From a virus, in the UHGV virus genome UHGV-1421865: a stretch of DNA of 64,000 nucleotides, one strand, 5' to 3'. Shown here one piece after another: positions 14,071-34,448 of the stretch. The notes under the pieces are model-generated. The model did not search any database, was not told the DNA's origin, and was given only the letters and a program-made list of their open reading frames with translations. The translations under genes and the position numbers were made by a program. Positions within the stretch are counted from its first letter, which is position 1, and the number at the start of each line of letters is the position of its first letter.

Positions 14071-14109
14071 CTTATTTCAGTTATATATCGACTAAACTCT
14101 AAACGTCCA

Positions 14110-14258
14110 AAAATCTCCTCTCTAACGCACGATTTTTCTTTGACCTTCACTAGGCTAAGCCTAGTATATTTGAGTGCGTTAGAGAGCCTTAAAAGTGCCT
14201 TTACGGGCTTGTAATGTATTTGTACGTCCCTGCCCAAAACAGAAAACGTACAAATCAG
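14110..14258 (-). repeat. conserved about 150-nt intergenic element, copy C
   Basis: CTCTCTAACGCAC...GTGCGTTAGAGAG perfect stem; inner hairpin CTAGGCTAAGCCTAG; TAtaTTTG motif preceded by TTTG 22 nt upstream. Confidence 0.6.
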
Positions 14259-14322: not shown

Positions 14323-14883
14323 GTGATAACAATCGGAATCGACCCGAGTATAAACTCTACCGGCATCTGCGTTAACGAACGAGATGTGAACGGAAAACAA
14401 AAAATAAAGTTCTATATTATAAGACCTAATAACCTTACAAAGAAAGAACAAAATATCAAGTTGAGTAACTTTAAGTTCTTATTGTACGATAAGGTATCGA
14501 GTACAGACAAGCATGAAAACGAGGTGTGTAAAACAAGAAATTTATTATATATAACAGATCATATTAAAACAGTACTAAAATCGGCTGTTCGAAAGGTAGG
14601 TACAGAGAACGTAAAAGTATACATGGAAGGTATCTCATACGGTTCGTTACAGACACTTTCGGTGTTTGACTTGGCCGGTCTAAATTATCTTATTCGCGGT
14701 ACTTGTGAATCGCTTAATATATCATATACCATAGTACCGCCGTCGGAAGCAAAGAAGCACGCCACCGGTAAAGGTAACGCATCGAAGGAACTAATATCGA
14801 AAACTTTCTTGACGTTGTATCCTAAAATGGGTGTACTAAAGAAGGTAGACGACATCGCAGATGCCTATTTCATGTCTATCTAG
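14323..14883 (+). CDS. RuvC-like Holliday junction resolvase
   Basis: MITIGIDPSINSTGICV (GIDPS...G), YMEGISYG, C-terminal ADAYFM acidic residue pattern. Confidence 0.55.
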   Translation: MITIGIDPSINSTGICVNERDVNGKQKIKFYIIRPNNLTKKEQNIKLSNFKFLLYDKVSSTDKHENEVCKTRNLLYITDHIKTVLKSAVRKVGTENVKVYMEGISYGSLQTLSVFDLAGLNYLIRGTCESLNISYTIVPPSEAKKHATGKGNASKELISKTFLTLYPKMGVLKKVDDIADAYFMSI

Positions 14884-17845: not shown

Positions 17846-18958
17846 TTAATACAGTTCTATACGTAGACCTAACTTATTGGCTTTTAACATCTTAGATGAT
17901 GTAGAGTTTATATCACCCGTGAAGAGTACTTTCGCGTCTGACCAACTGTTTGTTTGAACGTACTGTGGATTCTTCTCCAGAAATTCTTTCTTAGACGCAT
18001 ATTTAGACGGACTACCCGTCAACATCACAGGCACTTGTGTAGTCTTGCTTGTACCGACGTGTAAGTTTGTAAGTTGACACATACCAATGCCGTAGTCAGT
18101 AAGTGCGTTAACCAACGCATTGAATTGCAACCATTTAGGTGATTGGTGATTATAGACCCAACTGTACCCTTCCGATGCGACACCACTGAAATCGGCTTGT
18201 CCAGTACCGATGAACTGCGCACATTTCTTAGCGCATGTGGAACCACATTTGTTGAAATTCAACGACTTGATGATGTCTACTAATGTGATTTGTCGTCGGT
18301 AATTCTTAAACGATTCGGCGGCTTTCTGCCCTCGTTTACCTTTCAACGCTTGTTCTATCTGTTCCGGTCTTACTTGGAGTATATTTGTTAAACTCTCGAA
18401 GTTATGTTGTAAAGTGTCGTACAACGCAGCCGCTACAGACGGACCGATGTTAGGTATCTTCAGAGTTTGTGCAGACGCGATGAACTGCCCACGGTTACTC
18501 ACAAGACCCACCAGATGACAACCTTCTACAACAGCATCATTTGGTAAACTACCGAGGTCCTTTGATGGATTGTCAAGTACAGAATAAAGAAACGGAATAA
18601 TGTCACCGGCTAAGGAAACTTCAATCTCCGTACCTATACCTACTTGATTATCAATAAGATAGCCGTAGTTATGTCCAGAACATTTAGTGACTATTTTATC
18701 AAGTAGTACAACAGGTTCAAAGACAATCACCGGTGTATACTCTCCGGTCTTACCTTGGTTCCATACAATATCTACTACCTTCGTCTTTTGAATTTCCGGA
18801 ACAAATTTCACAGCAACGCAGTCCGACGGTCGAACTTTATCGGTATTCTGTTCTCTGACAGGGAGTATAGGCTTGATAACAAACCCGTCCAGAGCATATT
18901 CACACTCTTCGGTACGGTATTTGTTAAAGTCGTTATATAGTTCTTGTAAGGTACTCAT
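17846..18958 (-). CDS. NAD-dependent DNA ligase, C-terminal polypeptide (NTase motifs IV-V, OB, HhH and BRCT-like regions)
   Basis: Begins inside adenylation domain: LDGFVIKP (motif IV), VAVKF (motif V); start ATG overlaps stop of upstream TS-like gene (TAATG). Confidence 0.7.
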   Translation of the reverse strand: MSTLQELYNDFNKYRTEECEYALDGFVIKPILPVREQNTDKVRPSDCVAVKFVPEIQKTKVVDIVWNQGKTGEYTPVIVFEPVVLLDKIVTKCSGHNYGYLIDNQVGIGTEIEVSLAGDIIPFLYSVLDNPSKDLGSLPNDAVVEGCHLVGLVSNRGQFIASAQTLKIPNIGPSVAAALYDTLQHNFESLTNILQVRPEQIEQALKGKRGQKAAESFKNYRRQITLVDIIKSLNFNKCGSTCAKKCAQFIGTGQADFSGVASEGYSWVYNHQSPKWLQFNALVNALTDYGIGMCQLTNLHVGTSKTTQVPVMLTGSPSKYASKKEFLEKNPQYVQTNSWSDAKVLFTGDINSTSSKMLKANKLGLRIELY

Positions 18959-19926
18959 TATACTGCGATAGGTGCTTTAATAACAGGGGGTGTATAAGAA
19001 CCGTCGAAATGTTTCTTTACCTTTATCTGTCGGCTTTCGTACATCTCCAAAATATAACACAAATAAGCGTCTAAGGACATCGGTACATTCACAGTAGACA
19101 TGGTCATATCCAAGGTGCATTCTACGGTATGATAACATTGCGTCACATAGTCATCGGTATTAGTAAAGAACGAATCGATATATTCCTGTACAGCATCTTT
19201 ATGATTGTCGTAGATATGGAAATTATCGGCGGTATAGTATATATTTCCGCATTTTACTTTATCGATACCATATTTCTTTTTGAACCATTCATGGTTGACC
19301 TTAAAATAGCCGTTTATAAACCAGTTGAACCAAGAACAGAATATGAAATTATACGGCGCACCCAAGAACGCGTCGTTACTGCGAATATGAGCATGTAGGT
19401 TGTGTGTAAGTACTGTATTCCCAGCGTCGTCTGTGTCCAACTGAAATGTAACGTTATATTCGAACATACAAGGTGCCAGTGCCATTTCCGGTAGGTCGTT
19501 CACATTCCAAAGTGAGATAATATGTCGGCGCGAGAATAAATTGTTATTGAAACCTTCAAATAGTTGTTTCAACTGATCAATACCGTTAAAGTTTCGAAAC
19601 TGATAACCGTACGCCTTACCGATAGTACCATCTTCCTGTACCCATTCATCCCAATAGGTAACACCGTGGTCGCGAAGCCACTGTACGTCGGTCCGTCCTT
19701 GCAGCATCCAGAGTAGTTCGGTGAGTGCCATTCGAGGATAAACACGTTTTCCGTTCACCACCATCAGTCGAACTTCGTCGGACGGTGAAGGAGACTGTTC
19801 AAATACAAAGTTGATACCGTAAGAGTTCAACGTACTGATGTCGGTTCTATTCGACATTTTCTGTGTGACAGTCGACAATATGTTAGTAAGCTGTCTTACA
19901 TAGTCTGTTTCAAATAGTTGTGTCAT
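18958..19926 (-). CDS. thymidylate synthase family enzyme (ThyA or dUMP-hydroxymethylase-like) with about 100-aa C-terminal extension
   Basis: LTELLWMLQGRTDV, RRHIISLWNVNDL, MALAPCM (catalytic Cys), PYN (Asn, uracil-specific); 322 aa versus about 260 typical. Confidence 0.75.
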   Translation of the reverse strand: MTQLFETDYVRQLTNILSTVTQKMSNRTDISTLNSYGINFVFEQSPSPSDEVRLMVVNGKRVYPRMALTELLWMLQGRTDVQWLRDHGVTYWDEWVQEDGTIGKAYGYQFRNFNGIDQLKQLFEGFNNNLFSRRHIISLWNVNDLPEMALAPCMFEYNVTFQLDTDDAGNTVLTHNLHAHIRSNDAFLGAPYNFIFCSWFNWFINGYFKVNHEWFKKKYGIDKVKCGNIYYTADNFHIYDNHKDAVQEYIDSFFTNTDDYVTQCYHTVECTLDMTMSTVNVPMSLDAYLCYILEMYESRQIKVKKHFDGSYTPPVIKAPIAV

Positions 19927-20602
19927 TGTTTAATGGATATTCTAGTTTATAAAATTTAGGTGTCTTGGGAAGTCCGTACCATTCTCGTTCTGTCCACTTA
20001 CCGTTTTCTAATACTCTATAATCGTATATGATAATGTCTAAATCATCGTCGTATTCGTGAGATGTACTATTCAAGACACCCGATACCATCGAACGAGGAC
20101 TCGAGAACTTATCTTTGTATTTCTCTTCAAATGTCTTCAGTTTTACCAGCACCTCACCACGTATAACTGCCTGTGCACCATATACATAGTAGTCTGGATA
20201 AACCGATCGAATTTGCTTAATAAGGTGGCTACGCAAGTCTTTACCGTAATTCCCGTCGCCCCGAGACGATATGCTGCCAACAGTACCGTTCGCATTGATA
20301 ACACATTCGAAAGAACAACCGTCGAATTTCGGGGTCACTTCTATGGCATTATCACCGACATATTTTTTAATATCTTCTGTATAATTAGAAAAATCATCTA
20401 AGCTATGAACTTGGACCTTGTAGAGGGATCCCATTATAAACGGATGCCGTACAGTATATGTTGTACTGGATTTAGTACCGATATAAGACTTGTTCTCGAG
20501 ACCTAGCTCTTTCTCTAACGCGTCAAATTCTGTGTCAGACATTATCTCCTGCCCATTGTAGTATGCTTCTTTTGCTTTATGGTATAATTCTTCTTTTGTC
20601 AT
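19910..20602 (-). CDS. NAD-dependent DNA ligase, N-terminal polypeptide (domain Ia plus NTase motif I)
   Basis: YYNGQEIMSDTEFDALEKEL (domain Ia), HPFIMGSL, KxDG lysine motif TPKFDGCSF; ends 17 nt after start of TS-like gene. Confidence 0.7.
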   Translation of the reverse strand: MTKEELYHKAKEAYYNGQEIMSDTEFDALEKELGLENKSYIGTKSSTTYTVRHPFIMGSLYKVQVHSLDDFSNYTEDIKKYVGDNAIEVTPKFDGCSFECVINANGTVGSISSRGDGNYGKDLRSHLIKQIRSVYPDYYVYGAQAVIRGEVLVKLKTFEEKYKDKFSSPRSMVSGVLNSTSHEYDDDLDIIIYDYRVLENGKWTEREWYGLPKTPKFYKLEYPLNNDTTI

Positions 20603-20684: not shown

Positions 20685-20835
20685 TGACAGTTTCTATTTC
20701 GTGTACCGACGTGTACAAATCTAGAATCGTCATAAAGGCACTTTAGAGCTCCTGTATCGCGTCGAAATTATCTAGCCTTACTACAACCAAGGTCAACTAA
20801 TTTGTACGCGATACAGGAGAGATTTTTATTGAGTT
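20685..20835 (+). repeat. conserved about 150-nt intergenic element, copy D (core inverted relative to flanks)
   Basis: Flanks in the same orientation as copies E-H, but the core CCTGTATCGCGTC-gaaattatctagcctt...-CGCGATACAGGA matches copy A core as read on the opposite flank orientation. Confidence 0.55.
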
Positions 20836-20924
20836 TCAAATGGGTACACTGACGCCGTGTGGGACACGTTGTGTGTACCGTCTTGATGCTTTGCATCAAA
20901 TTGTTCACAAAGTGAACATAATTA

Positions 20925-20965
20925 AGACCTCAGTAGACTTATAACAATCTACTGAGGTCTCTAAC
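20925..20965. terminator. hairpin AGACCTCAGTAGA...TCTACTGAGGTCT
   Basis: 13-bp perfect stem. Confidence 0.45.
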
Positions 20966-21039
20966 TATGACTACTAAATCAATTTATAAATCAATCAAAT
21001 TTCGGCAGTTTATAAGTCAGTAGGGACCTTGGTTTTTAA

Positions 21040-21172
21040 TCTCTTGCTCTATTAGTACACGCAACTCGTTGTAAGTAGCAGGTTTTAATTTAGCCGATTT
21101 CGTATTCGATGTGATCTTTAGACGTTCGTTAATGAAATTTTGTAGACTCATTTATTCGCTAGTATTGTTTAT
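21040..21172 (-). pseudogene. DUF285 N-module remnant (truncated after about 44 codons)
   Basis: Translates MSLQNFINERLKITSNTKSAKLKPATYNELRVLIEQEIKNQGPY then stop; no repeats follow. Confidence 0.4.
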
Positions 21173-21810
21173 CAGTCTTTGAATTTTGGTTGAAGTTGTG
21201 GATTAGTTCCCATATTAGGACATTTATCAAATGTCATATAATACTTGATTACTTTCGACACATCCCACTCAGACAAGTCACAATTGAAACGTTCGCAAAA
21301 ATAGAACATATAACTCATATTTTTAACATTGGTGACATTCCAAGAACTTAAATCTACATTTAGCTTTTTACACCAAGAGAACATATCTTCCATGTTTTCT
21401 ACTTTACTAACGTTCCAATTTTCTATACCTTTGCCTTCAAATTTTTTACATTCATAAAACATGAAAGACATGTTCGTTACATTAGAGGTGTTCCAATTTT
21501 CTACTCCATCGCCTCTGAAGTTATCTTGACCTACAAACATGTTTTGCATAGTAGTTACATTTGATGTATTCCACTGGTCAATTTTGATATTTCCGATGTT
21601 TAATTTATAAAACAAACTAACCATATCTGTAATCTCCGATGTATCTATAAAGTTCAAATCGGCGTTCGGACCTTGTTCTTTTAGTTCTTGTTCTATAATA
21701 GATCTGAGTTCGTCTTTTGTTTTAGGTCTCAATCTTAATGGTTGGGTATCGGGCGTAATCTTTAATCGTTCTGTGATTAAACTATCGTGAATGTATCGTG
21801 AAAGTGACAT
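21172..21810 (-). CDS. DUF285-repeat protein; C-terminal 71 aa identical to 26151..26696
   Basis: N-module MSLSRYIHDSLITERLKITPD...; 3' 214 bp identical in inverted orientation to 26478..26694. Confidence 0.6.
   Translation of the reverse strand: MSLSRYIHDSLITERLKITPDTQPLRLRPKTKDELRSIIEQELKEQGPNADLNFIDTSEITDMVSLFYKLNIGNIKIDQWNTSNVTTMQNMFVGQDNFRGDGVENWNTSNVTNMSFMFYECKKFEGKGIENWNVSKVENMEDMFSWCKKLNVDLSSWNVTNVKNMSYMFYFCERFNCDLSEWDVSKVIKYYMTFDKCPNMGTNPQLQPKFKD
21177..21392. repeat. left arm of perfect 214-bp inverted repeat
   Basis: Reverse complement identical to 26478..26694. Confidence 0.8.
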
Positions 21811-21827
21811 TGAAGTAAATATGTATG

Positions 21828-23525
21828 TTAAACACCAGTACCGTCTAAAATCTTTCTAGCAACGTCATTTATTATTAAATGTTGGTTATTAGGAAACATT
21901 TGAAGTACTTCGCTTAAGTTGTCGACATAGTAGTCGTACACTTTGATATTTGTTATATTGCCAGGAAATGAATACAATACTATCTCCGATTTCTGTAATA
22001 TAGGAATATCCATGGTATATTGTTCGTGAAGCGTACTATTATCGCCGGCGGCATTGTCCATATCGAAGAAATAATGAACCGGTGCTAACTTATATATCGG
22101 TAATCGTTTATCGAAAGTGTATTTATAAGATGAAAACTCTACTGTTTTCAAATCGGGACAACATCTAAACACGACAAACCAGGTATCGCCTGTTTCCAAT
22201 TTAAGACCGCCGCTCTTCATTTTGTTTACCTTTAACGTACCGTTTTTGATATTGAATTTGAAGTCTCCAATAGAAAATAAAGGACCGTCATAGAGGTCGT
22301 CTGTCATACTGACAATAAATGATATAGTAAAAGCCTGCCCACAGAACTTTCGTTGGTATATCGTCGACGGTCGACCGAAGATCTTACTCATGTCGACATT
22401 CGGATCTTGTATATAATTAGACGAACGAACAAAATTGTACTGTGAGTCTGCGATTAAGGTTCCTTTATAATAGAGATTTTCACCCGTATTGATGTGTGTC
22501 GTTACGGTATCAACATATTTTCGTATCGCATCGCTTTCGTATACCGGTGTTAGGGTATTCGGTGCAGGTAACGGTGCTGATAATGTCTGGGTACCGGCGT
22601 CAACAGTGTCGTCGTATTCTGTAAACAAGTCCTCGTATTTCTTAGTAACAAAACTGTCTACCATCACCGAAAACTCGTCTTTCATATTAACACTGTCTTT
22701 CTCTTGGTATTTTACCAGTGCTAATTTGAACGTTGTGCCTATCCACATCAGCCCTTCCGATTTCTCTTCGTACGCACCGTTTACCATCCACATTCTCTTT
22801 GTTAACGGTATATAAATAAGATCACCTTCCATAGGTTGCACAGTATCACCAAAAGCCGTTGCAAAAGCCTCTTTTGTGACTTCTGTTTCCCAGTCGAGTT
22901 GAAAGTCCATTCCGAAGTCGGCAAATTCTGGTTTCGACGACGGCATCCTACCTTCCGGAACGACGAGTTTAATCATCTTAACACTTTCGACGTCCATCAA
23001 GGCGTATTCTTTGAATGTAAGATCCTTCGAACCGACATTGGGACTGAGTTTGAAATAGTAAACGGGAATACCGAAAAGGTCCCCTACCATATTCACCAGT
23101 TTGTTCTGTAATGCGACAGCGCCGTCGAGATTAGAATAAGGATTGAAATTGGCAGGTGTTGATTTACCGTACAAGAACTCAAAACATGACTCTTGACTAG
23201 TATTGTAGTCAATAACGTCTTCGCTGTTTATCTTTATTCCGCTAACAAGGCCTTTTATTTTAATACGAACATACAGGTCTTGACCTACTGCATTGATACC
23301 TGACAAGAACTCTTCCCACGACATATAGCACGACCAGGTAACAGTATCTAACGAATAAGCATATTCTAAACATGTCTCGTCGTACTGTGCTCCTTTATCG
23401 TCATACAAGTATATAGACGACAATTTTGACGGTGACAGCGGGAGATTGATGTTGATCACCTGGGGTACCGTCAAACATCCGGTGGCTGCATTTGTCGTTA
23501 CATCTTCCGGAATCGTAGAAATCAT
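21828..23525 (-). CDS. large hypothetical protein, probably virion-associated (adjacent to and overlapping CHAP lysin)
   Basis: 565 aa; ATGA-type overlap with upstream CHAP gene. Confidence 0.35.
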   Translation of the reverse strand: MISTIPEDVTTNAATGCLTVPQVININLPLSPSKLSSIYLYDDKGAQYDETCLEYAYSLDTVTWSCYMSWEEFLSGINAVGQDLYVRIKIKGLVSGIKINSEDVIDYNTSQESCFEFLYGKSTPANFNPYSNLDGAVALQNKLVNMVGDLFGIPVYYFKLSPNVGSKDLTFKEYALMDVESVKMIKLVVPEGRMPSSKPEFADFGMDFQLDWETEVTKEAFATAFGDTVQPMEGDLIYIPLTKRMWMVNGAYEEKSEGLMWIGTTFKLALVKYQEKDSVNMKDEFSVMVDSFVTKKYEDLFTEYDDTVDAGTQTLSAPLPAPNTLTPVYESDAIRKYVDTVTTHINTGENLYYKGTLIADSQYNFVRSSNYIQDPNVDMSKIFGRPSTIYQRKFCGQAFTISFIVSMTDDLYDGPLFSIGDFKFNIKNGTLKVNKMKSGGLKLETGDTWFVVFRCCPDLKTVEFSSYKYTFDKRLPIYKLAPVHYFFDMDNAAGDNSTLHEQYTMDIPILQKSEIVLYSFPGNITNIKVYDYYVDNLSEVLQMFPNNQHLIINDVARKILDGTGV

Positions 23526-24037
23526 GCGAAACGAAATATATTACAAACACCGTCACCGGAATACGGCCACATTTTGTTCTGAATAAAATCGCTAATCCAT
23601 CGCTTTCCTGTCCACATACAGATATGACCGTGTTGACCGTGGTTCATTACGGCAATATCACCGGGCACGGCGCTGGTATTCGTCCATTCCGCCTGTTTTG
23701 TGACACCGGACAGCATAGCAACGTGTTTGAAACCGATCTTGGGTAAGAATTCGGTGTATTTATACGCCGACGTAGGACGACCTGCGGTAGAAAGACCTCC
23801 GGCTTCTATTGCCTGACGAACATACATCGCACACCGCCCTACAGAAGACACATTCGCCGCAGATGTTAGGTGTGTTAGCGCTTTACGAATATCCCATCCT
23901 GTTTTCGACGGAATATAATTTCCTATAAGACTATTTCCTGACATAGATACATTTTGTCCTAAATTTATAGACGAGAGTATTCCGGATAGGATACCCTCTT
24001 TTGTATAACCTTCCATATACTTAAAAATCAGATACAA
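23522..24037 (-). CDS. CHAP-domain peptidoglycan hydrolase
   Basis: Catalytic Cys in GRCAMYVRQAIE and His in GDIAVMNHGQHGHICMW; 171 aa. Confidence 0.65.
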   Translation of the reverse strand: MYLIFKYMEGYTKEGILSGILSSINLGQNVSMSGNSLIGNYIPSKTGWDIRKALTHLTSAANVSSVGRCAMYVRQAIEAGGLSTAGRPTSAYKYTEFLPKIGFKHVAMLSGVTKQAEWTNTSAVPGDIAVMNHGQHGHICMWTGKRWISDFIQNKMWPYSGDGVCNIFRFA

Positions 24038-24135
24038 TCTGATTCAACATTTCAATTTATTGAAATCAAAAATCCATCGCATGTGGATTTCACAATTAGG
24101 CTCTACAGAAATCTACTTCGTAGTTATTTAGTATA
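24038..24135. promoter_or_regulatory. spacer with three consecutive palindromes (TCAGAtacaaTCTGA, TTCAATttaTTGAA, AAATCCAtcgcatgTGGATTT)
   Basis: Between topoisomerase gene end and CHAP gene start; terminator and/or promoter. Confidence 0.35.
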
Positions 24136-25998
24136 TCACACAGAAGCAGATCGTCTGTCGGAGATATTGTCTTTATCGAACCATAATGTAATAGCGGCAT
24201 CCGCAGCGTCGTCTTTTGTGAAATAGAGATAGTTCTTACTTCGCATCATCTCTTTGTACTGTGCCGTATTCTGTCCACCGAGACCTTTGATGTGTTTGAT
24301 GTCGCAGCCTTTCAATTTTGACGGATACTTCTTTTGGAAATCCCTAAATTCGTCTAATGTATAGAAATTATAACTATCTTTCTTCGACGATGCGATGATA
24401 ATAGGACTGATAACACGGCAGATTAGTTTCTGTTCGAACAGTTCGGGGAAATGATTAAAGAACACTAACAACAGCGACGCAATCTTATCCCCGTCATAGT
24501 CCATATCGGTAGAGATAACGATACGAGAGAACTTTAGATCTTTTTTATTATTGTATTTGCCCCATTGTAGACCTATCACTTTTACGATGTCGTTAAAGAC
24601 TTGGTTCGTCATCACCTTGGTTGGTTTAAGCCCATAGGTATTGAGGGGAACACCGCGCATTAGATAACCGGCTTGATTATCCGGATTTCTACCGGCTCTG
24701 AATCCCGATGCCGCGGAATCGCCTTCGAAAATCCATAGTTCGTTGTCCTGAGTCTTTTTAGAGTTACAGTTGATGAACTTGTCGTTACGAAGTAGCTTAC
24801 CGGCGTCTTTATTTAGTTTTCGTAGCTTCTTTGCGTCTTCGGCTTGCTCTTTCTTGGTATACCAGTCTAAGATGTTGTCGATAATCTCAGACTTCAGAAC
24901 TTTGTTTATAACATCTTGCGATAGTTCGTAATTGGGGTCCTTCGACAGGTTGTTGGTAAGACATTCTTTCGTCTGTGAGTCGTAAGTCGGATTATATACG
25001 GTGAATTTACAAAACAAGCTATACTGTGCGTCTATGGACTGCAATGTCGTTTGTATTTTCTTCTTTTTAAGTAAGAACTCTTGAATAGCCTTATTAAGTA
25101 CGCTCTTAATAGACTGAATGTGTGTGCCTCTGGAACATTCTACACCGTTTACAAAGCCTACTGTTACTTGTTTATCGTCCGACGGCAGTATGGTGTATTC
25201 TTTAATTGTATCCTTATATGATACTACTTTATTAGATACATCAAGACCGTACAGTTTAATATAGTCGTCAAAGTTGCCGAATTTGAATTTGTGGTGCTCG
25301 GTATTGTCGTTATAAGTCACTTCGAGACCTGGATTCGCAGCGGCGGCGTCGGCACATCGTTTGATAATAAGCGGTACAATGTCTTTAATAGAGAAAGCTT
25401 CGAATCTACTGTCGTCGATAACAAATATCGTCCGCATATAATGTTTCTTAGACGGCTTTACTTTTAGATCGTCGCAGAGCTCCCGCATATTGTTCTTCCA
25501 TGTACGATGGTATGCTTTCTTGCCGTCGGCACATTCGATAACAAATTCTTTAGAGAAGATATTGGCCAGCGACGCACCGACACCGTTTGTTCCGACAACA
25601 TTGCGGGACTCATCGTCGTTATAATTAGAAGATGTACGAAGTCGACCGAAAATGAACTCGGGAAGATAACAACCGGCGGTGCTGTGCTTTTGAACGGCGA
25701 TACCCCCGTTGTCTTCTACCGTTACCTTGTTTGTCTTCAAGTCGATTGTAACATTGATTTTATTAAGCCCCATATTAGAATCGCGACGGTATTCGTCGCA
25801 CGAGTTTGAGATAACTTCGTCGATAATCTTCAACACACCCGGTACGTAACTAATTTCCGACTGAACTATTACGTCACCCGACCAATGATAGGTATTAGAC
25901 TGCGTTAGTTTAGTCGATCCGATGTACATACCCGGACGGAGGAGGATATGATCTAGTTCGTCTAATTCTTTATATATATCTTCAATTTTCTTTTTCAT
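24136..25998 (-). CDS. type II DNA topoisomerase large subunit (GyrB-like ATPase plus Toprim; T4 gp39/gp60-like)
   Basis: HILLRPGMYIGS ATPase N-terminus, GTNGVGAS, Toprim EGDSAASG. Confidence 0.85.
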   Translation of the reverse strand: MKKKIEDIYKELDELDHILLRPGMYIGSTKLTQSNTYHWSGDVIVQSEISYVPGVLKIIDEVISNSCDEYRRDSNMGLNKINVTIDLKTNKVTVEDNGGIAVQKHSTAGCYLPEFIFGRLRTSSNYNDDESRNVVGTNGVGASLANIFSKEFVIECADGKKAYHRTWKNNMRELCDDLKVKPSKKHYMRTIFVIDDSRFEAFSIKDIVPLIIKRCADAAAANPGLEVTYNDNTEHHKFKFGNFDDYIKLYGLDVSNKVVSYKDTIKEYTILPSDDKQVTVGFVNGVECSRGTHIQSIKSVLNKAIQEFLLKKKKIQTTLQSIDAQYSLFCKFTVYNPTYDSQTKECLTNNLSKDPNYELSQDVINKVLKSEIIDNILDWYTKKEQAEDAKKLRKLNKDAGKLLRNDKFINCNSKKTQDNELWIFEGDSAASGFRAGRNPDNQAGYLMRGVPLNTYGLKPTKVMTNQVFNDIVKVIGLQWGKYNNKKDLKFSRIVISTDMDYDGDKIASLLLVFFNHFPELFEQKLICRVISPIIIASSKKDSYNFYTLDEFRDFQKKYPSKLKGCDIKHIKGLGGQNTAQYKEMMRSKNYLYFTKDDAADAAITLWFDKDNISDRRSASV

Positions 25999-26019
25999 AC
26001 ATTTATTTATAGCGATTTT

Positions 26020-26150
26020 TGTGAACTGAATCAGTGCATATCATGTAGTGAATCAACATGTTTACATACAAAAAATCAATGTAGCCAATATAATTAAAAT
26101 GTGAAATCCGTTATACACTGATTTTTACATATAAGAACAAAAGAATTCTA
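26020..26150 (+). promoter_or_regulatory. candidate promoter region for the plus-strand DUF285 array
   Basis: AATCAGTGCA at about 26027 and CTGATTTTTACATATA about 30 nt before ATG. Confidence 0.3.
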
Positions 26151-26696
26151 ATGTCACTTTCAACATTCATCACAGAACGATTAAAGATTACATCTAACTC
26201 TAAATCAGCTATACACAAACCATCGTCGAGAGACGAACTCAAATCTATTATAGAACAAGAACTGGAACGTCAAGGTCCGGATGCCGATTTGAACCATATT
26301 GACGTATCTTACATTACAGATATGTCTTATTTATTTTACAAATTAAACATCGAAAACATTAAAATCGACCAGTGGGACGTTTCCAATGTCACTAATATGG
26401 AAGGGATGTTTTATGAATGTAGTAATTTTGAAGGCAACGGCCTAGAAAACTGGGACGTATCGAACGTCACTACTATGGAAGATATGTTCTCTTGGTGTAA
26501 AAAGCTAAATGTAGATTTAAGTTCTTGGAATGTCACCAATGTTAAAAATATGAGTTATATGTTCTATTTTTGCGAACGTTTCAATTGTGACTTGTCTGAG
26601 TGGGATGTGTCGAAAGTAATCAAGTATTATATGACATTTGATAAATGTCCTAATATGGGAACTAATCCACAACTTCAACCAAAATTCAAACAGTAA
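26151..26696 (+). CDS. DUF285-repeat protein (N-module type MSLS.FITERLKITS)
   Basis: N-module plus repeats; 3' 214 bp identical in inverted orientation to 21177..21392. Confidence 0.6.
   Translation: MSLSTFITERLKITSNSKSAIHKPSSRDELKSIIEQELERQGPDADLNHIDVSYITDMSYLFYKLNIENIKIDQWDVSNVTNMEGMFYECSNFEGNGLENWDVSNVTTMEDMFSWCKKLNVDLSSWNVTNVKNMSYMFYFCERFNCDLSEWDVSKVIKYYMTFDKCPNMGTNPQLQPKFKQ
26478..26694. repeat. right arm of perfect 214-bp inverted repeat
   Basis: Reverse complement identical to 21177..21392. Confidence 0.8.
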
Positions 26697-26702
26697 TCAA
26701 CA

Positions 26703-27299
26703 ATGGCAATACACATCACATCAAATACAAAATCTCTCAGAGTAAAACCTACGGACGAAACAGAATTACGTGACATTGTCGAACAAGAGTTAGACAGTCA
26801 AGGTCCAGATGCCGACCTGAACTTCATTGATACGTCTCTTATAACAGATATGAGGGGGCTATTTTATAGTTTTAGAGGTATTAGAAATATCAAGATAGAC
26901 AAGTGGGACACTTCAAATGTTTTGGACATGCGTTCTATGTTCGGCAAATGTTACGAATTAAACACTGATCTATCTAAGTGGGACGTTTCAAATGTTAAAA
27001 ATATGTCACACATGTTCATCGAATGTTATAAATTCAATTCGGACCTATCCGGTTGGGACACATCAAGTGCGGTTAACATGGAATCTATGTTCGACAGCTG
27101 TACAATTTTTGAATCCGACTTATCCGAATGGAATACCAGTAAAGTTACCCACATGTCTAGTATGTTTCAAAAATGCTCTAAATTCGAGTCTGACCTATCC
27201 GCTTGGGATGTATCGAATGTCAAAAAGAACGGTGGGATGTTTTATATGTGTACTAAAATGATGGGTAAAAAACATCTACAACCTAAATTTAATATATAA
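26703..27299 (+). CDS. DUF285-repeat protein (N-module type MAIHITS)
   Basis: MAIHITSNTKSLRVKPTDETELRDIVEQELDSQGPDADLNFIDTSLITDM plus about 6 repeats. Confidence 0.6.
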   Translation: MAIHITSNTKSLRVKPTDETELRDIVEQELDSQGPDADLNFIDTSLITDMRGLFYSFRGIRNIKIDKWDTSNVLDMRSMFGKCYELNTDLSKWDVSNVKNMSHMFIECYKFNSDLSGWDTSSAVNMESMFDSCTIFESDLSEWNTSKVTHMSSMFQKCSKFESDLSAWDVSNVKKNGGMFYMCTKMMGKKHLQPKFNI

Positions 27300-27304
27300 A
27301 TAAT

Positions 27305-28081
27305 ATGTCACTTTCAAAATACATCACAGAACGGTTAAAGATTACGTCGAATACAAAATCGGCCAATAACCAACATACATTGTTTCCTAAAGATTTAAAG
27401 GAGCTCCTACCGATATTAGAAGATGAAATTAAAAAACAAGGTCCAGATGCTGACTTGAATCACATTGACGTATCGCAAATTACAGAAATGCACGATTTAT
27501 TTTATAGAATTTACATTAGAAACATCAAAGTCGACAAATGGGACGTGTCGAATGTAGTGAATATGCGTAAAGCGTTTACTGGTCATAAAGACTTTAACGC
27601 TGACCTATCATCCTGGGATGTATCAAATGTAGAGAATATGCGTAGTATGTTTGAAGGATGCCCGAACTTCAATGCTGACCTGTCAGAATGGGATGTATCT
27701 AAGTGTAGAGATTTCTGTAACGTATTTAATGGATGTGAAAAATTCAACCATGATCTGTCTAATTGGGATGTTTCTAAGGCTTGGATTACAGCAGGTATGT
27801 TTCAGGATTGTAATAGTTTTGAATCAGATTTATCTTCTTGGAATGTATCTAATGTAAAGGACATGAATAGGATGTTCCAAAACTGTTGGAAATTCAATTC
27901 CGATCTGTCTGGTTGGAATGTATCAAAAGTTGAAACAGTATCACAAATGTTCGAGAATTGTACAAGATTTAGAAGTAATTTATCTAAATGGGATGTAAAT
28001 CGTGTAAAAACTTGGTATAAGTTCAGTGCTGAGTGTCCAAATTTTAATGATAAGAGTAATTTGCCTGAAAAACTTAGATAG
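27305..28081 (+). CDS. DUF285-repeat protein
   Basis: MSLSKYITERLKITSNTKSA... plus about 8 repeats. Confidence 0.6.
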   Translation: MSLSKYITERLKITSNTKSANNQHTLFPKDLKELLPILEDEIKKQGPDADLNHIDVSQITEMHDLFYRIYIRNIKVDKWDVSNVVNMRKAFTGHKDFNADLSSWDVSNVENMRSMFEGCPNFNADLSEWDVSKCRDFCNVFNGCEKFNHDLSNWDVSKAWITAGMFQDCNSFESDLSSWNVSNVKDMNRMFQNCWKFNSDLSGWNVSKVETVSQMFENCTRFRSNLSKWDVNRVKTWYKFSAECPNFNDKSNLPEKLR

Positions 28082-28113
28082 ATTTAAACAATACTAACTA
28101 TATTTAATACACT

Positions 28114-28965
28114 ATGTCACTTTCAAAATACATCACAGAACGATTAAAAATTACGTCAAATAGCAAATCGGCTACTAGACTAAAACCTAAAACAAGATAT
28201 GAGCTTAGTTCGTTGATAGGGGAAGAATTAGAACGTCAAGGTCCCGATGCCGATTTGAACTTTATCGACACATCGGATATTACAGACATGTCTGAGTTGT
28301 TTTCTGGGTTTAACATAGAAAACATCAAAATAGACCAGTGGGACGTTTCTAATGTCGATAATATGTATCGTATGTTTAATTTATGTACTAGCTATAATGG
28401 TGACTTGAGCAATTGGGACGTTTCTAATGTTGAGAACATGTATGGTATGTTTAACGGTTGTATGTCATTTACCGGAGAAGGTATAGGAAATTGGAATGTC
28501 TTAAATGTTACTAATATGTCGACAATGTTTATGGGTTGTAAAGTATTGAATCCTGACCTATCTGGATGGGACGTTTCTAATGTCAATGACATGCGCGCTA
28601 TGTTCGATATGGCAAATTCTTTTGAAGGGAAAGGTTTAGATAAATGGCGTACCACCAAGCTTACTGATACAAAACAGATGTTTTATGGTTGTGATAATTT
28701 CAATTGTGACTTGTCTGACTGGGATGTGTCTAACGTAACAACCATGTTATCTATGTTTGAGTCTTGTTATAAATTTGATTCTAATTTGGGTAAGTGGGAC
28801 GTTAGCAATGTGACGGATATGAAATTTATGTTCAGAAACTGTTATAATTTCAAAGGCATCGGTTTGGAAATGTGGAATACTTCAAATGTAATTACAATGA
28901 ATTCAATGTTCGACGGTTGTAAGAAATTAAATGTCGATTTAAGTTCTTGGAATGTTTGTTTCTAA
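28114..28965 (+). CDS. DUF285-repeat protein
   Basis: MSLSKYITERLKITSNSKSA... plus about 10 repeats; first 45 nt nearly identical to 27305 start. Confidence 0.6.
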   Translation: MSLSKYITERLKITSNSKSATRLKPKTRYELSSLIGEELERQGPDADLNFIDTSDITDMSELFSGFNIENIKIDQWDVSNVDNMYRMFNLCTSYNGDLSNWDVSNVENMYGMFNGCMSFTGEGIGNWNVLNVTNMSTMFMGCKVLNPDLSGWDVSNVNDMRAMFDMANSFEGKGLDKWRTTKLTDTKQMFYGCDNFNCDLSDWDVSNVTTMLSMFESCYKFDSNLGKWDVSNVTDMKFMFRNCYNFKGIGLEMWNTSNVITMNSMFDGCKKLNVDLSSWNVCF

Positions 28966-29044
28966 AGTAGGACCTTATAATACATTTAAGCTAAAATCTG
29001 GCACCCACCCAAATTCAATATCTAAAAATAACACAGTTTCACTA

Positions 29045-29506
29045 ATGTCACTTTCACAATACATCACAGAACGACTAAAGATTACATCTAATAGTAAATC
29101 TGCAACAGTGACACCAAAGTCAAGAGACGAACTCAGATCTCTTATAGAAAAAGAATTAGAACACCAAGGCCCAGATGCTGATCTAAATTTCATTGATACA
29201 TCTGAGATTACCGATATGTCATACCTGTTCGAAGACTGTAATATCAGAAACATCAAAATAGACGAATGGGATGTCAGCAATGTAACTGATATGCGCGGCA
29301 TGTTTGTTTGGCGTAAAGATTTCAATTGTGACTTGTCTCGTTGGGACGTATCTAACGTCACAAACATGACTGATATGTTCAACACCTGTAAAGAATTTAA
29401 CTGTGACTTATCCGGTTGGGATGTATCTAATGTTGTTAAGCATTTTAGTGTATTTTTTAACTGTGATAAGATACAAGATAACATGACTCCTAAATTCAAT
29501 AAATAA
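29045..29506 (+). CDS. DUF285-repeat protein (start corrected to MSLSQYITERLK)
   Basis: Track ORF extended 31 codons upstream; family N-module begins at 29045. Confidence 0.55.
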   Translation: MSLSQYITERLKITSNSKSATVTPKSRDELRSLIEKELEHQGPDADLNFIDTSEITDMSYLFEDCNIRNIKIDEWDVSNVTDMRGMFVWRKDFNCDLSRWDVSNVTNMTDMFNTCKEFNCDLSGWDVSNVVKHFSVFFNCDKIQDNMTPKFNK

Positions 29507-29523
29507 ATAAATAAATCAAAAAT

Positions 29524-30051
29524 ATGAGTTTACAAAAATACATCAAAGAAGCACTGTCGCCCGGTAGCTTTAATAACAAACCTACTACGACACAAGAACT
29601 CAGAGATCTTATAAAAGAGGTGTTTGATAAACAAGGACACAATGCCGACCTGAACTTCATCGATACGTCGTTGATTACTGATATGTCCGAACTATTCAGA
29701 GACCTTTATCCCCAAAACATCAAAATCGACAAATGGGATGTCTCTAATGTGACGAAGATGAACCACATGTTTGTCGATTGTATGTATCTTAAAACAGATA
29801 TTTCTGATTGGGACACCAGCAATGTTACAGATATGCAATATATGTTCTGTAATTGTAGTTACTTCAACGGTGACTTGTCCGGTTGGGACGTATCTAACGT
29901 TACTAACATGGATTTGATGTTCAAAGGTTGTGCGCGACTGGAATGCGACTTATCCTATTGGGATGTCGACAATGTAGAAACTCACTTCGACGCTTTTGAA
30001 GGTTGTGAAAAGATGACCGATGAAATGCTACCGAAATTTGAATTTTCATAA
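29524..30051 (+). CDS. DUF285-repeat protein (divergent N-module)
   Basis: MSLQKYIKEALSPG...ELRDLIKEVFDKQGHNADLNFIDTSLITDMS plus repeats. Confidence 0.55.
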   Translation: MSLQKYIKEALSPGSFNNKPTTTQELRDLIKEVFDKQGHNADLNFIDTSLITDMSELFRDLYPQNIKIDKWDVSNVTKMNHMFVDCMYLKTDISDWDTSNVTDMQYMFCNCSYFNGDLSGWDVSNVTNMDLMFKGCARLECDLSYWDVDNVETHFDAFEGCEKMTDEMLPKFEFS

Positions 30052-30840
30052 ATGAAACTACAAAAATTCATCACAGAACGGTTAAAGATTACGTCTAAGT
30101 CAAGACCACTCAAACTAACAGAACGTACATTGTTTCCGACTAACTCCGGGCAACTTAAAGCTGTAATAAAACATGAATTGAAACATCAAGGTCCGGATGC
30201 CGATTTGAACCATATCGATACTTTTAAGATCACCGATATGTCTAAATTATTTGAATCTCTACAAATCGGAAACATCAAAATCAACGAATGGGACGTCAGT
30301 AATGTCACTAATATGAGGTTCATGTTTAGCGGGCGTACTAAATTCAATTGCGACTTGTCCGGTTGGGACGTCAGTAATGTAACAGATATGGGGTTCATGT
30401 TTAGTAGTTGTACGTTATTTGAGGGTGGTGGTTTAGATCATTGGGATACGTCCAACGTGGCAGATATGGAACAGATGTTTTACGGTTGTGAGAATTTCAA
30501 TTGTGACCTATCTAGTTGGTCTTCGCGTGTCTCTAATGTGACAAATATGAACGGTATGTTTTCTGGAGCTGATAAATTTGAAGGTAATGGTTTAGATCAT
30601 TGGGATACGTCCAACGTGACACGCATGCGTGCTATGTTTAAGGGTTGTAAGGTTTTTGAAAGCGACATATCCGGTTGGGATACGTCAAATGTTGAGGACA
30701 TGTCGTATATGTTTATGGACTGCGGTAAGTTCAAATCAAATCTATCAGGCTGGAACGTATCTAAATTAGGCGGTCCTCAGATTAATATATTCAAAAATTG
30801 TCCTAAGATGATACCTCCGTTGAGACCTCGATTTGAATAG
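30052..30840 (+). CDS. DUF285-repeat protein
   Basis: MKLQKFITERLKITSKSRPL... plus about 8 repeats. Confidence 0.6.
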   Translation: MKLQKFITERLKITSKSRPLKLTERTLFPTNSGQLKAVIKHELKHQGPDADLNHIDTFKITDMSKLFESLQIGNIKINEWDVSNVTNMRFMFSGRTKFNCDLSGWDVSNVTDMGFMFSSCTLFEGGGLDHWDTSNVADMEQMFYGCENFNCDLSSWSSRVSNVTNMNGMFSGADKFEGNGLDHWDTSNVTRMRAMFKGCKVFESDISGWDTSNVEDMSYMFMDCGKFKSNLSGWNVSKLGGPQINIFKNCPKMIPPLRPRFE

Positions 30841-30868
30841 TGAAATCTAACTTAGCTGATTTTCATAT

Positions 30869-31381
30869 ATGAAACAGGAATTCATATATAACCGAAACAC
30901 AATGCCCGCGTCGTTTAAGGATATTATTTCTGAACGACGCGGTCGTCTTTATACACAGTATCTCGATATTTGTCTGTATCGGTACTTTTTAGACTCGAAA
31001 CAACTACGGGCTATTATAACCAGTACAAATCCGGACATCAAGACCGACAAAGACTATATTAAGGAGATATATAACAAGTTTACTATAATAAACCGTTCTA
31101 AAGCGAACTATGTCGAATGCCCAAGAATTCTACTGATGCCGAAAGACGTTCGTATATCGTCACCTATCGACGTCGACTTGACAGATTATTGGAACGACGT
31201 GATTGAGATAGAACCCAGCAAGCTGACTGCACAGGAGATAGGTCATAAAGAATTAGTGTATCTTGATTATGTTAACGGGCAAGCGCGACTGCGAGACAAG
31301 ATAGAACAGGACATTACTAATTACGATTTTGACGTGATACCCGACGAGCTGCACATTGCAGACGAATATAAACTTAATTAA
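30869..31381 (+). CDS. hypothetical protein
   Basis: 170 aa ORF. Confidence 0.4.
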   Translation: MKQEFIYNRNTMPASFKDIISERRGRLYTQYLDICLYRYFLDSKQLRAIITSTNPDIKTDKDYIKEIYNKFTIINRSKANYVECPRILLMPKDVRISSPIDVDLTDYWNDVIEIEPSKLTAQEIGHKELVYLDYVNGQARLRDKIEQDITNYDFDVIPDELHIADEYKLN

Positions 31382-31387
31382 AACAAT

Positions 31388-33920: not shown

Positions 33921-33958
33921 TTAAAAGACGATCTCAGCTATTTTGGGTCGTCTTTTTT
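33921..33958. terminator. hairpin terminator AAAAGACGATCtcagctattttgggTCGTCTTTTTTGT (left inverted-repeat arm)
   Basis: Stem plus T-run immediately after plus-strand gene stop; inverted copy at 34449..34492. Confidence 0.6.
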
Positions 33959-33982
33959 GTATCATTTTACATCGATTTGTAT

Positions 33983-34130
33983 GATTTCTGTTTTGTGTAC
34001 TGGTATACCAAACTATAACAAGCCCGTAAAGGCACTTTTTAGCCTCTCTAACGCACTCAAATGTACTTACCTTGGTACTACCAAGCCTCAACAAAAATCG
34101 TGCGTTAGAGGGGAGATTTTTGTGTGTTTT
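33983..34130 (+). repeat. conserved about 150-nt intergenic element, copy E
   Basis: GTTTCTGTTTTGTGTACTGGTAT...CGTAAAGGCACTTTTTAGCC-TCTCTAACGCAC-[CCTTGGTAgTACCAAGG]-GTGCGTTAGAGG-GGAGATTTTTGTG. Confidence 0.65.
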
Positions 34131-34296
34131 CAAAATCAACCTACCTATTATGATGTTGGTTGTGTCACAACGTATAATAAAATACATATAAAGCGTACTT
34201 TACGTATATTATATGATACCTTATGGAAAATCACATTAACTTTATTAGTACAGTATCTTTAGTACTGTTTGGTAGCAGTTTAGTGTGATTTTGTCG

Positions 34297-34445
34297 GTTT
34301 CTGTTTTGTGTACTGGTATACCAAACTATAACAAGCCCGTAAAGGCACTTTTTAGCCTCTCTAACGCACTCAAATGAAGTGACCTTAGTAGTACCAAGGT
34401 CAAAGAAAAATCGTGCGTTAGAGGGTAAATTTTGTAGGTTTTTGA
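34297..34445 (+). repeat. conserved about 150-nt intergenic element, copy F (tandem with E)
   Basis: Same architecture; inner hairpin GACCTTaGTAgTACcAAGGTC. Confidence 0.65.
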
Positions 34446-34448
34446 TTT

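What the first reader, a model, noticed from the sequence alone, without database searches (positions are those of the whole stretch)
21177..26694. Perfect 214-bp inverted repeat brackets a 5.1-kb segment holding the structural, CHAP, topoisomerase and promoter genes
The 3' ends of two convergent-outward DUF285 genes (21172..21810 minus, 26151..26696 plus) are identical at the DNA level over about 214 bp, giving identical C-terminal 71 aa, but in inverted orientation. Homologous recombination between them would invert everything between 21392 and 26478. That includes the promoter region feeding the seven-gene plus-strand DUF285 array, and it would leave both bracketing genes intact. This arrangement recalls invertible segments such as Mu G and P1 C. 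Perfect identity within otherwise diverged paralogs argues for very recent gene conversion or ongoing exchange.
Basis: seen in the sequence. Interest (0 to 1): 0.7.

Follow-up and report, generated by a model that had tools for sequence, protein, structure and literature searches.

The report
Paralog inverted repeat flanking a phage module
Two copies of a repeated phage gene that face away from each other share an identical 216-base tail around a 5-kb block of core genes; related phages carry that block in the opposite orientation, so ordinary recombination between gene copies, not a programmed switch, reshuffles this genome.

Summary
The repeat is real. Positions 21178-21393 and 26475-26690 are perfect reverse complements: 216 bp, or 72 codons. 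They are the 3' ends of two divergent DUF285 genes that bracket 5,081 bp holding a topoisomerase II large subunit, a CHAP-like peptidase and a head-closure (neck) gene. The next longest exact repeat in the window is 79 bp.

Three other assemblies of the same phage match the window perfectly over up to 20.7 kb, except for 11 substitutions packed into 36 bp of the left arm (21224-21259). In those assemblies the repeat is 134 + 46 perfect bp around a diverged patch. The window's perfect identity is therefore either a short gene-conversion tract copied from the right arm or an assembler artefact.

Three assemblies from two related lineages carry the same module inverted between collinear flanks, with breakpoints inside or beside the flanking DUF285 genes. 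A second 1.7-kb inversion between DUF285 genes separates two of those relatives.

No invertase was found among the ORFs of 100 aa or more in the 64-kb window, and inversion would change neither protein. The best reading is general homologous recombination and gene conversion among at least 27 DUF285 paralogs. It resembles repeat-mediated module inversion in Campylobacter T4-like phages and does not fit a Mu G / P1 C switch. Whether it flips within one population was not tested.

The parts
21178..21393 (-). Left arm of the perfect inverted repeat, forming the last 72 codons but one of the left DUF285 gene
   Evidence: 216/216 complementary to 26475-26690.
26475..26690 (+). Right arm of the perfect inverted repeat, forming the 3' end of the right DUF285 gene
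   Evidence: It is identical in L010, L013 and L014.
21224..21259 (-). 36-bp patch inside the left arm that differs at 11 positions (7 amino acids) in three other assemblies of the same phage. In the window it matches the right arm.
   Evidence: L010, L011 and L012 differ from the window only here over up to 20.7 kb.
21172..21810 (-). Left DUF285 gene (212 aa), last gene of the minus-strand run topoisomerase > CHAP-like > neck > DUF285
   Evidence: PF03382, E = 2.6e-49; mosaic, with a 5' part like the neck-adjacent gene of relatives and a 3' part like their right-array gene.
26151..26696 (+). Right DUF285 gene (181 aa), first of seven plus-strand DUF285 genes
   Evidence: PF03382, E = 5e-45; looks like a fusion of two adjacent genes of relatives.
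21394..26474 (.). 5,081-bp interior that recombination between the arms would invert
   Evidence: independent short-read assemblies give contigs of 5,081, 5,319 (+2x119) and 5,335 bp (+2x127) that stop in both arms; most of this interior (window 21622-26392) lies inverted in L018, L022 and L023.
21828..23525 (-). 565-aa head-closure / T4-neck-like protein
   Evidence: phrog_679 'head closure Hc2', E = 1.4e-8. PF11649, E = 0.0018, below the curated cut-off.
23522..24037 (-). 171-aa CHAP-like / endolysin-domain protein
   Evidence: phrog_38472, E = 7.9e-13. CHAP, E = 0.006, below the cut-off.
24136..25998 (-). DNA topoisomerase II large subunit (620 aa)
   Evidence: phrog_543, E = 8.5e-150. DNA_gyraseB, Toprim, TOPRIM_C.
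25999..26150 (.). Divergent intergenic gap between the topoisomerase gene and the right DUF285 gene. It lies inside the invertible interior and is a presumed promoter region.
   Evidence: sequence; no promoter signal above chance; it travels with the module in the inverted relatives.
21017..21151 (-). 44-aa remnant of a DUF285 N-terminus (MSLQNFINERLKITSNT...QGPY*) just outside the left arm, probably a scar of an earlier rearrangement
   Evidence: It is called as a 44-aa gene in L010, L011 and L012.
20924..20961 (-). Hairpin with a 16-bp stem after the remnant, terminator-like
26703..30840 (+). The other six DUF285 genes of the plus-strand array, whose upstream context would change on inversion
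14323..14883 (+). RuvC-like Holliday-junction resolvase, part of the phage's general recombination machinery
   Evidence: phrog_159, E = 2.5e-26.

Best explanation
The window comes from an uncultivated jumbo phage of roughly 200-228 kb found in human oral metagenomes. Its replication genes are interspersed with at least 27 paralogous DUF285 (BspA-like repeat) genes. Two of these paralogs point away from each other on either side of a three-gene module: topoisomerase II large subunit, CHAP-like peptidase and head-closure protein.

General homologous recombination between these inverted paralogs has two outcomes.

1. Without crossover it copies a stretch of one gene into the other (gene conversion). 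This has made the last 216 bp identical here. In sibling assemblies the result is 134 + 46 identical bp around an unconverted 36-bp patch.
2. With crossover it inverts the 5.1-kb module. That has happened at least once in the history of this phage group, because related lineages carry the module in the opposite orientation between unchanged flanks.

The enzymes are inferred to be the phage's own recombination and replication machinery, as in T4-type phages. A RuvC-like resolvase and a gp32-like single-strand-binding protein are encoded in the window. No dedicated invertase is needed.

Inversion changes no protein sequence. It only swaps which flank lies downstream of the module and which lies downstream of the divergent intergenic gap.

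Shown here: the repeat, the allelic patch, the inverted arrangement in relatives and the mosaic make-up of the paralogs. Inferred: the enzymes involved, that the patch difference is biological, and any effect on transcription.
For: - Repeat: 216 bp perfect, with identity falling sharply to paralog level (about 70-78%) beyond it.
- Same-strain assemblies: L010 (200-kb scaffold), L011 and L012 match the window at every base over up to 20.7 kb except 11 substitutions at 21224-21259. All 11 change the left arm to the right-arm state. The right arm is invariant.
- Relatives of the closest clades (L006, L008, L020, L024; 84-87% nt identity) have no such repeat. Their longest exact inverted matches are 61 and 32 bp, so the tract is recent and lineage-specific.
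- Inversion: L018 aligns to the window as + (17847-20584), - (26043-21622), + (30856-31399). L022 and L023 align as +, - (26392-21826), +. These are three assemblies from three samples. They have no N gaps at the junctions and no long repeat that could mislead an assembler.
- Breakpoints: module homology runs into the 5' parts of the flanking DUF285 genes (to 26392 and 21622).
- A second inversion of 1.7 kb between DUF285 genes separates L018 from L022. In L018 it is bounded by a 65-nt, 97% inverted repeat.
- Both bracketing genes are mosaics of the relatives' genes.
- No resolvase/invertase or integrase domain was found in the 50 ORFs of 100 aa or more that were scanned with Pfam.
- The window encodes a RuvC-like resolvase and a gp32-like protein.
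- Precedents: repeat-flanked module inversion in Campylobacter group II phages (PMC4546147) and recombination at repeated PeSL motifs in T4-like phages (PMC4122927).
Against: - No reads were available, so neither flipping within a population nor the reality of the fully converted allele was tested.
- The inverted lineages are only 75-83% identical to the window in core genes and now lack a long repeat. The inversion could therefore be old and unrelated to the present arms.
- The direction of the patch change is inferred by parsimony. A donor for the sibling patch elsewhere in the roughly 160 kb not seen cannot be excluded.
- Only 64 kb of the genome was screened for recombinases.
- The orientation in this strain rests on two assemblies that had to bridge a 134-216-bp repeat.
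Confidence: 0.7

Rival explanations
1. The perfect 216-bp identity is an assembly artefact. The real left arm carries the diverged 36-bp patch, as in the other assemblies, and the assembler or polisher of the 223-kb contig collapsed the two nearly identical arms. The true repeat would be 134 + 46 bp.
For: - Three assemblies from at least two pipelines (MEGAHIT k127, MEGAHIT k119, and a scaffolder) agree on the patch.
- There are zero other differences over 27.4 kb (9910-37299). This suggests that all assemblies, perhaps including the window's, derive from the same sample or strain.
- The window's left protein occurs on only one contig in a collection of 15 billion proteins.
Against: - The 11 changes end cleanly inside the two shared stretches, as a biological conversion tract would.
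- My own reasoning about assemblers, not a test: at the large k values such assemblers finish with, the 46-bp shared stretch is shorter than k, so the two variants form a fork and not a simple bubble. This makes an accidental swap less likely.
- A mixed population holding both alleles would also explain the disagreement between assemblies.
Confidence: 0.3
2. The segment flips back and forth at appreciable frequency in present populations through homologous recombination between the arms, so that both isomers coexist, as in herpesvirus or plastid genome isomers.
For: - 134-216 bp of perfect homology is, from general knowledge of T4-type phages, ample for their recombination systems.
- Inversion costs no coding sequence.
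- Both orientations are viable, because both exist in related lineages.
- Short-read assemblers stop at both arms, although any repeat longer than k causes that.
Against: - The two assemblies that bridged the repeat (the window and L010) chose the same orientation.
- Proteins expected from a crossover in the sibling background (left 5' part with right tail, and the reverse) are absent from the protein collection, though the sample is tiny.
- The recombinant junction was not found in the JGI or GTDB scans. Those collections do not hold this phage at all, so that result carries no weight.
Confidence: 0.2
3. It is a programmed invertible segment operated by a site-specific invertase, like Mu G/Gin or P1 C/Cin, that switches expression of the DUF285 array.
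For: - The geometry fits: an inverted repeat brackets a segment that contains a divergent intergenic gap next to a gene array.
- About 160 kb of the genome was not seen.
Against: - No Resolvase or integrase domain was found in the 50 ORFs of 100 aa or more that were scanned across the 64 kb.
- The arms are 216 bp of coding sequence at the 3' ends of genes, so no alternative protein arises.
- The closest relatives lack the repeat, so it is not a conserved device.
Confidence: 0.03
4. The arms are the remains of a recent inverted duplication of one DUF285 gene, not of conversion between pre-existing paralogs.
For: Identical sequence in inverted orientation is what a fresh inverted duplication would leave.
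Against: - Identity covers only the last 216 bp and then drops abruptly to about 70-78%.
- The left gene has an extra repeat unit.
- Both positions are already occupied by DUF285 genes in every relative.
- The sibling allele shows a patchwork, not a decaying duplicate.
Confidence: 0.04

Closest known systems
Module inversion between repeat regions in Campylobacter group II (T4-related) phages, CP21 versus CP220/CPt10 (PMC4546147)
   Same: Both are large T4-related lytic phages. Blocks of genes are inverted between close relatives, the breakpoints lie in repeated sequences built from units of about 72-86 bp (75/78 bp here), and homologous recombination is the proposed cause. The repeats also break short-read assemblies in both cases.
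   Different: In those phages the modules are tens of kb and the repeats are long arrays described as repeat regions. Here the module is 5 kb and the repeats are the coding 3' ends of small DUF285 genes. I did not show that the Campylobacter repeat regions encode DUF285. The one DNA match I found in phage IBB_35 is a single isolated BspA-family gene.
PeSL-mediated modular shuffling in T4-like phages (PMC2839356, PMC4122927)
   Same: Short dispersed homologous sequences serve as exchange points for the phage's general recombination system and generate differences between close relatives.
   Different: PeSLs are non-coding promoter/terminator cassettes, and the described outcomes are insertions, deletions and replacements. 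Here the exchange points are protein-coding paralogs and the outcomes are conversion and inversion.
Invertible segments Mu G (Gin) and P1 C (Cin)
   Same: An inverted repeat brackets a segment of a few kb in a phage genome.
   Different: Those need a dedicated serine invertase and short crossover sites, and they swap alternative tail-fibre C-termini onto a constant N-terminus. Here no invertase was found, the arms are 216-bp 3' coding ends, and flipping changes no protein.
PARCEL / DUF285 repeat genes of Mollicutes and other microbes (PMC2996958) and the DUF285-rich genome of Aureococcus virus AaV, with 38 DUF285 proteins (PMC10720644)
   Same: The same 25-26-residue repeat family, expanded into many paralogs and thought to be shuffled within genomes.
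   Different: Those cases are bacteria and a giant eukaryotic virus. Here the family is expanded in a tailed phage and scattered among its replication genes as small proteins whose N-termini do not look like signal peptides by eye (not tested).

Membership tests
Site-specific invertible segment (Din family: Gin/Cin/Hin/Pin) | A serine invertase gene next to the segment | tested here: not met
   Pfam scans of 50 ORFs of 100 aa or more in the 64-kb window (10 in the region around the segment and 40 further non-DUF285 ORFs) found no Resolvase or integrase domain. The rest of the roughly 220-kb genome was not seen.
Site-specific invertible segment (Din family: Gin/Cin/Hin/Pin) | Inversion exchanges alternative coding ends on a constant gene part, or moves a promoter relative to a gene | tested here: not met
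   The arms are the identical 3' ends of both genes, so both proteins are unchanged by inversion. A promoter effect is possible but no promoter was demonstrated.
Site-specific invertible segment (Din family: Gin/Cin/Hin/Pin) | Short (about 26 bp) crossover sites, with strand exchange at a fixed dinucleotide | not tested
   No systematic search for gix/hix-like sites was run. With no recombinase found, it would not be decisive.
Homologous-recombination-mediated inversion between dispersed inverted repeats | Long, highly identical inverted repeats at both ends of the segment | tested here: met
   216 bp perfect in the window and 134 + 46 bp perfect in L010.
Homologous-recombination-mediated inversion between dispersed inverted repeats | Both orientations found among related genomes, with breakpoints in the repeated genes and collinear flanks | tested here: met
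   The window and L010 have one orientation; L018, L022 and L023 have the other. Module homology ends inside the flanking DUF285 genes.
Homologous-recombination-mediated inversion between dispersed inverted repeats | Both isomers detectable within one population | not testable with these tools
   No read data were available. The scans for the recombinant junction were uninformative because the collections lack this phage.
Gene conversion within a multigene family | A tract of identity with sharp edges inside otherwise diverged paralogs | tested here: met
   Identity is 100% over 216 bp and about 70-78% just beyond it. Other paralog pairs are 60-89% identical, with exact matches of 50 bp or less.
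Gene conversion within a multigene family | One-way replacement seen between alleles: one copy changes to match the other, which stays constant | tested here: inconclusive
   The pattern is exactly this: 11 of 11 changes go towards the right-arm state and the right arm is invariant. An assembly artefact cannot be excluded without reads.
DUF285 / PARCEL repeat proteins (the bracketing genes) | Significant match to PF03382 and tandem units of about 25 residues | tested here: met
   E = 2.6e-49 and 5e-45. Unit spacing is 75/78 nt.

The most novel reading that the evidence does not exclude
The dispersed DUF285 genes could be a recombination-driven variation system. Frequent gene conversion among more than 27 paralogs would continually create new mosaic proteins, in the manner of cassette-based antigenic variation. 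Inversions between oppositely oriented copies, such as the one at this module and the 1.7-kb one in relatives, would re-assign gene bodies and whole arrays to different promoters. The phage population would then carry a standing mixture of isomers and alleles that is under selection, for example against host defences.
Probability: 0.1. Interest if true: 0.75.

Novelty: new member of a known kind. Interest (0 to 1): 0.45.

Why it matters
This is a concrete case, supported by comparison, of how an expanded gene family reshapes a large phage genome. The same paralogs that evolve by patchy conversion also act as breakpoints that flip blocks of essential genes.

It has a practical side. Repeats like this break short-read assemblies at predictable points (contigs of exactly interior + 2k), and they can leave the orientation, and even the sequence, of the repeat arms dependent on the assembler. 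That affects how metagenome-derived jumbo-phage genomes are compared.

It also draws attention to a group of oral jumbo phages in which about a third of the predicted genes in this region belong to one family of unknown function.

Tried and rejected
- Public collection scans for the arm or for the predicted recombinant junction found nothing: IMG/VR, JGI metagenomes and GTDB genomes. The arm itself is absent from all three, so the negative junction result carries no weight.
- Exact look-ups of the two bracketing proteins in the contig index returned 'not on record'. The cluster table does hold them, so that index is incomplete and those negatives were discarded.
- GenBank phages have no DNA relative. 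The only hit was 156 bp at 71% to one BspA-family gene of Campylobacter phage IBB_35. The closest topoisomerase is 49% identical, in Lak megaphages.
- The sigma-70 promoter scan gave 22 sites against 24.8 expected, so it says nothing about the divergent gap.
- The motif GATTTCACATTT, conserved upstream of the topoisomerase gene in relatives, is not repeated in the window.
- A search for a donor of the sibling 36-bp patch, allowing up to 6 mismatches, found none in the window or in six relatives.
- Five hypothetical crossover or conversion proteins are absent from the protein collection. Only two full-length assemblies of this strain exist there, so the test is weak.
- Rfam and tRNA scans of the window found nothing.
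- Orthology of individual DUF285 genes between the window and the inverted lineages could not be resolved (65-70% identity). The exact crossover points of the old inversion are therefore only bracketed.
Full report
**Observation**

An ungapped base-by-base comparison shows that window 21178-21393 is the exact reverse complement of 26475-26690. That is 216 bp with no mismatch. Similarity continues more weakly to 332 nt at 89%.

The arms are the last 72 codons but one of two DUF285 genes, 21172-21810 on the minus strand (212 aa) and 26151-26696 on the plus strand (181 aa). Both match PF03382 strongly (E = 2.6e-49 and 5e-45). The genes point away from each other, so their 3' ends face outward.

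The next longest exact repeats anywhere in the 64 kb are 79, 50 and 50 bp. The other DUF285 copy pairs reported are 60-89% identical. The repeat is therefore real and is a strong outlier.

**Content of the segment and its setting**

The interior holds:
- a topoisomerase II large subunit (24136-25998; phrog_543, E = 8.5e-150);
- a 171-aa CHAP-like or endolysin-domain protein (phrog_38472, E = 7.9e-13; the Pfam CHAP match is below its cut-off);
- a 565-aa head-closure or T4-neck-like protein (phrog_679, E = 1.4e-8);
- a 152-bp divergent gap.

Outside the left arm lie a 44-aa remnant of a DUF285 N-terminus, a strong hairpin, and then ligase and thymidylate synthase genes. Outside the right arm lie six more DUF285 genes and an 839-aa gene.

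The window as a whole is the replication region of a T4-like jumbo phage. It encodes family B DNA polymerase, DHFR, thymidylate synthase, NAD-dependent ligase, both topoisomerase II subunits, a gp32-like protein, a RuvC-like resolvase and a flap endonuclease. At least 27 DUF285 paralogs are scattered among these genes on both strands.

Its topoisomerase is only 49% identical to the nearest GenBank phage, the Lak megaphages. Near-identical and 94-97% identical copies sit on contigs of 135-228 kb from metagenome assemblies, those of this strain being labelled human oral metagenome.

**Other assemblies of the same phage**

Contigs carrying the identical topoisomerase are 5,335, 5,319 and 5,081 bp long. 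They match the window perfectly from inside one arm to inside the other. These lengths equal the interior plus 2 x 127, plus 2 x 119, and plus nothing, where 127 and 119 are the k values in the MEGAHIT contig names. This shows that de Bruijn assemblers stop at the repeat. It does not show that both orientations exist.

A 200,430-bp scaffold (L010) spans the whole region in the same orientation as the window.

L010 and two further contigs that enter the left arm from outside (L011, L012) are identical to the window at every base over up to 20.7 kb, with one exception. Eleven substitutions lie within 21224-21259. They change the left protein tail from ...SNVTNYYEIFKR... in the siblings to ...SKVIKYYMTFDK... 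in the window. The window version is exactly the right-arm sequence, and the right arm is the same in every assembly. In the siblings the repeat is therefore 134 perfect bp, a 36-bp patch at 69% identity, and 46 perfect bp.

That patchwork is itself the mark of earlier conversion. The window differs by one further short tract, at least 36 and at most 216 bp long, with both ends inside shared sequence.

I cannot tell whether this last step is biological or was produced by the assembler of the 223-kb contig. The window's left protein is on that one contig only, and the sibling version is on the 200-kb scaffold only. No donor for the sibling patch was found in the sequences available. The simplest direction of change is therefore copying of the right arm into the left.

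**Relatives**

Four lineages at 84-87% nucleotide identity (L006, L008, L020, L024) keep the module in the window's orientation relative to the right flank. They have no long repeat around it; their longest exact inverted matches are 61 and 32 bp. On the other side they have about ten DUF285 genes leading, in L006, to a prohead protease gene (Peptidase_S77), where the window has the ligase block. The perfect arms are thus recent and specific to the window's lineage.

The ligase/thymidylate synthase block and the 839-aa-gene block are collinear with the window, and the topoisomerase/CHAP/neck module between them is reversed:
- L018 aligns as + 17847-20584, - 26043-21622, + 30856-31399.
- L022 and L023 align as +, - 26392-21826, +.

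There are no N gaps at these junctions, and no long repeat is present that could have misled an assembler. Module homology runs into the 5' parts of the flanking DUF285 genes, which places the breakpoints inside or beside those genes.

Within this pair of lineages a second inversion is visible. It covers 1.7 kb holding the bodies of two DUF285 genes: L018 7590-9295 against L022 9816-8131, at 90.6% identity on the opposite strand. In L018 it is bounded by a 65-nt, 97% inverted repeat at the 5' ends of the two genes.

Protein comparison shows that both bracketing genes of the window are mosaics. The left gene has a 5' part like the relatives' neck-adjacent gene and a 3' part like their second right-array gene. 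The right gene looks like a fusion of their first and second right-array genes.

**Mechanism**

The evidence fits general homologous recombination between inverted paralogs. Non-crossover events give conversion tracts, and crossover events give inversions.

No resolvase/invertase or integrase domain was found in any of the 50 ORFs of 100 aa or more that were scanned. The window does encode a RuvC-like resolvase and a gp32-like protein. That T4-type phages recombine efficiently at short homologies is general knowledge and was not tested here.

Because the arms are the identical 3' ends of both genes, inversion changes no protein. It would place the remaining six-gene array downstream of the module instead of downstream of the divergent gap, and it would place the right gene with that gap next to the ligase block. 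Whether this alters expression is unknown, since the promoter scan was at chance level.

**Comparison with known systems**

The arrangement works like the repeat-flanked module inversions described between Campylobacter group II phages CP21 and CP220 (PMC4546147). More loosely, it resembles PeSL-mediated shuffling in T4-like phages (PMC2839356, PMC4122927).

It fails the defining tests of a Gin/Cin-type invertible segment, as set out in the membership table.

The bracketing genes belong to the DUF285/PARCEL family. Intragenomic shuffling has been proposed for that family in Mollicutes (PMC2996958), and it is also expanded in the giant virus AaV (PMC10720644).

**Verdict**

The finding is a new example of a known process in a poorly known phage group. 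Its main open points are whether the perfect identity is real and whether the segment flips in living populations. Both could be settled by read mapping.

Noticed in passing
window 7136-7245, 7660-7823, 14095-14258, 20715-20860, 33955-34146, 34268-34459, 41842-42033, 60050-60241: A second repeat family of about 150 nt in eight copies, in gaps between genes, on either strand and in either orientation relative to neighbouring genes. It has a conserved leader (…CGTAAAGGCACTTTTTAG…), a 14-bp stem with compensatory changes (7 of 18 predicted pairs covary), an inner hairpin and a T run. One copy lies just outside the left arm, and two tandem copies share 79 exact bp. There is no Rfam match. It could be a terminator/promoter cassette of the PeSL kind or a small RNA.
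   Followed up: partly
L018 7539-9318 versus L022 8096-9840: A second, independent inversion of 1.7 kb holding the bodies of two DUF285 genes, between two related phages. In L018 it is flanked by a 65-nt, 97% inverted repeat at the 5' ends of the two convergent genes, so the gene bodies swap promoters and N-termini.
   Followed up: yes
window 17846-20602, minus strand: The NAD-dependent DNA ligase appears split. An adenylation-domain ORF (19910-20602) and an OB-fold ORF (17846-18958) are separated by a complete thymidylate synthase gene (18958-19926), and the three ORFs overlap or abut. The same order is found in relatives L018 and L022.
   Followed up: no
window 1-64000: At least 27 DUF285 paralogs of 93-283 aa lie in 64 kb, on both strands and between core replication genes. 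Those inspected share a conserved N-terminal region of about 45 aa (MSLS.YITERLKITSN…QGPDADLN) that does not look like a signal peptide by eye. Their arrays turn over much faster than the core genes between relatives.
   Followed up: partly
window 21017-21151 (-), and L022 8901-9068: Truncated DUF285 fragments of 44 aa and 55 aa sit next to the rearranged junctions. The window fragment stops at the conserved QGP codons. They are probably scars of earlier deletions or rearrangements. Relatives of the closest clades have about ten DUF285 genes at this position.
   Followed up: partly
window 44357-44399, 45050-45092, 45428-45470, 49788-49830: A 43-nt motif occurs four times upstream of minus-strand genes. 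Its reverse complement contains TATCTTTG, which fits the TAnnTTTG -7 box that I recall for Bacteroidota promoters. This is a possible hint at the host phylum.
   Followed up: no
window 28975-29499 (-) opposite 28952-29506 (+); also 21190-21351 (+) and 26517-26678 (-): Long open reading frames run antisense through DUF285 genes, one of them 174 aa. This fits the dyad symmetry reported for PARCEL coding repeats (PMC2996958) and is a likely source of false gene calls.
   Followed up: no
window 33429-33772: Three copies of an 83-nt unit, spaced 174 and 87 nt apart and 69-86% identical, lie inside the 839-aa gene. The gene's length varies among relatives (839, 868, 897, 984 and 1,013 or more aa).
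   Followed up: no
window 719-2239 (-): The family B DNA polymerase ORF (506 aa) covers the exonuclease domain and only the first quarter of the polymerase domain. The polymerase may therefore be split, with DUF285 genes nearby.
   Followed up: no
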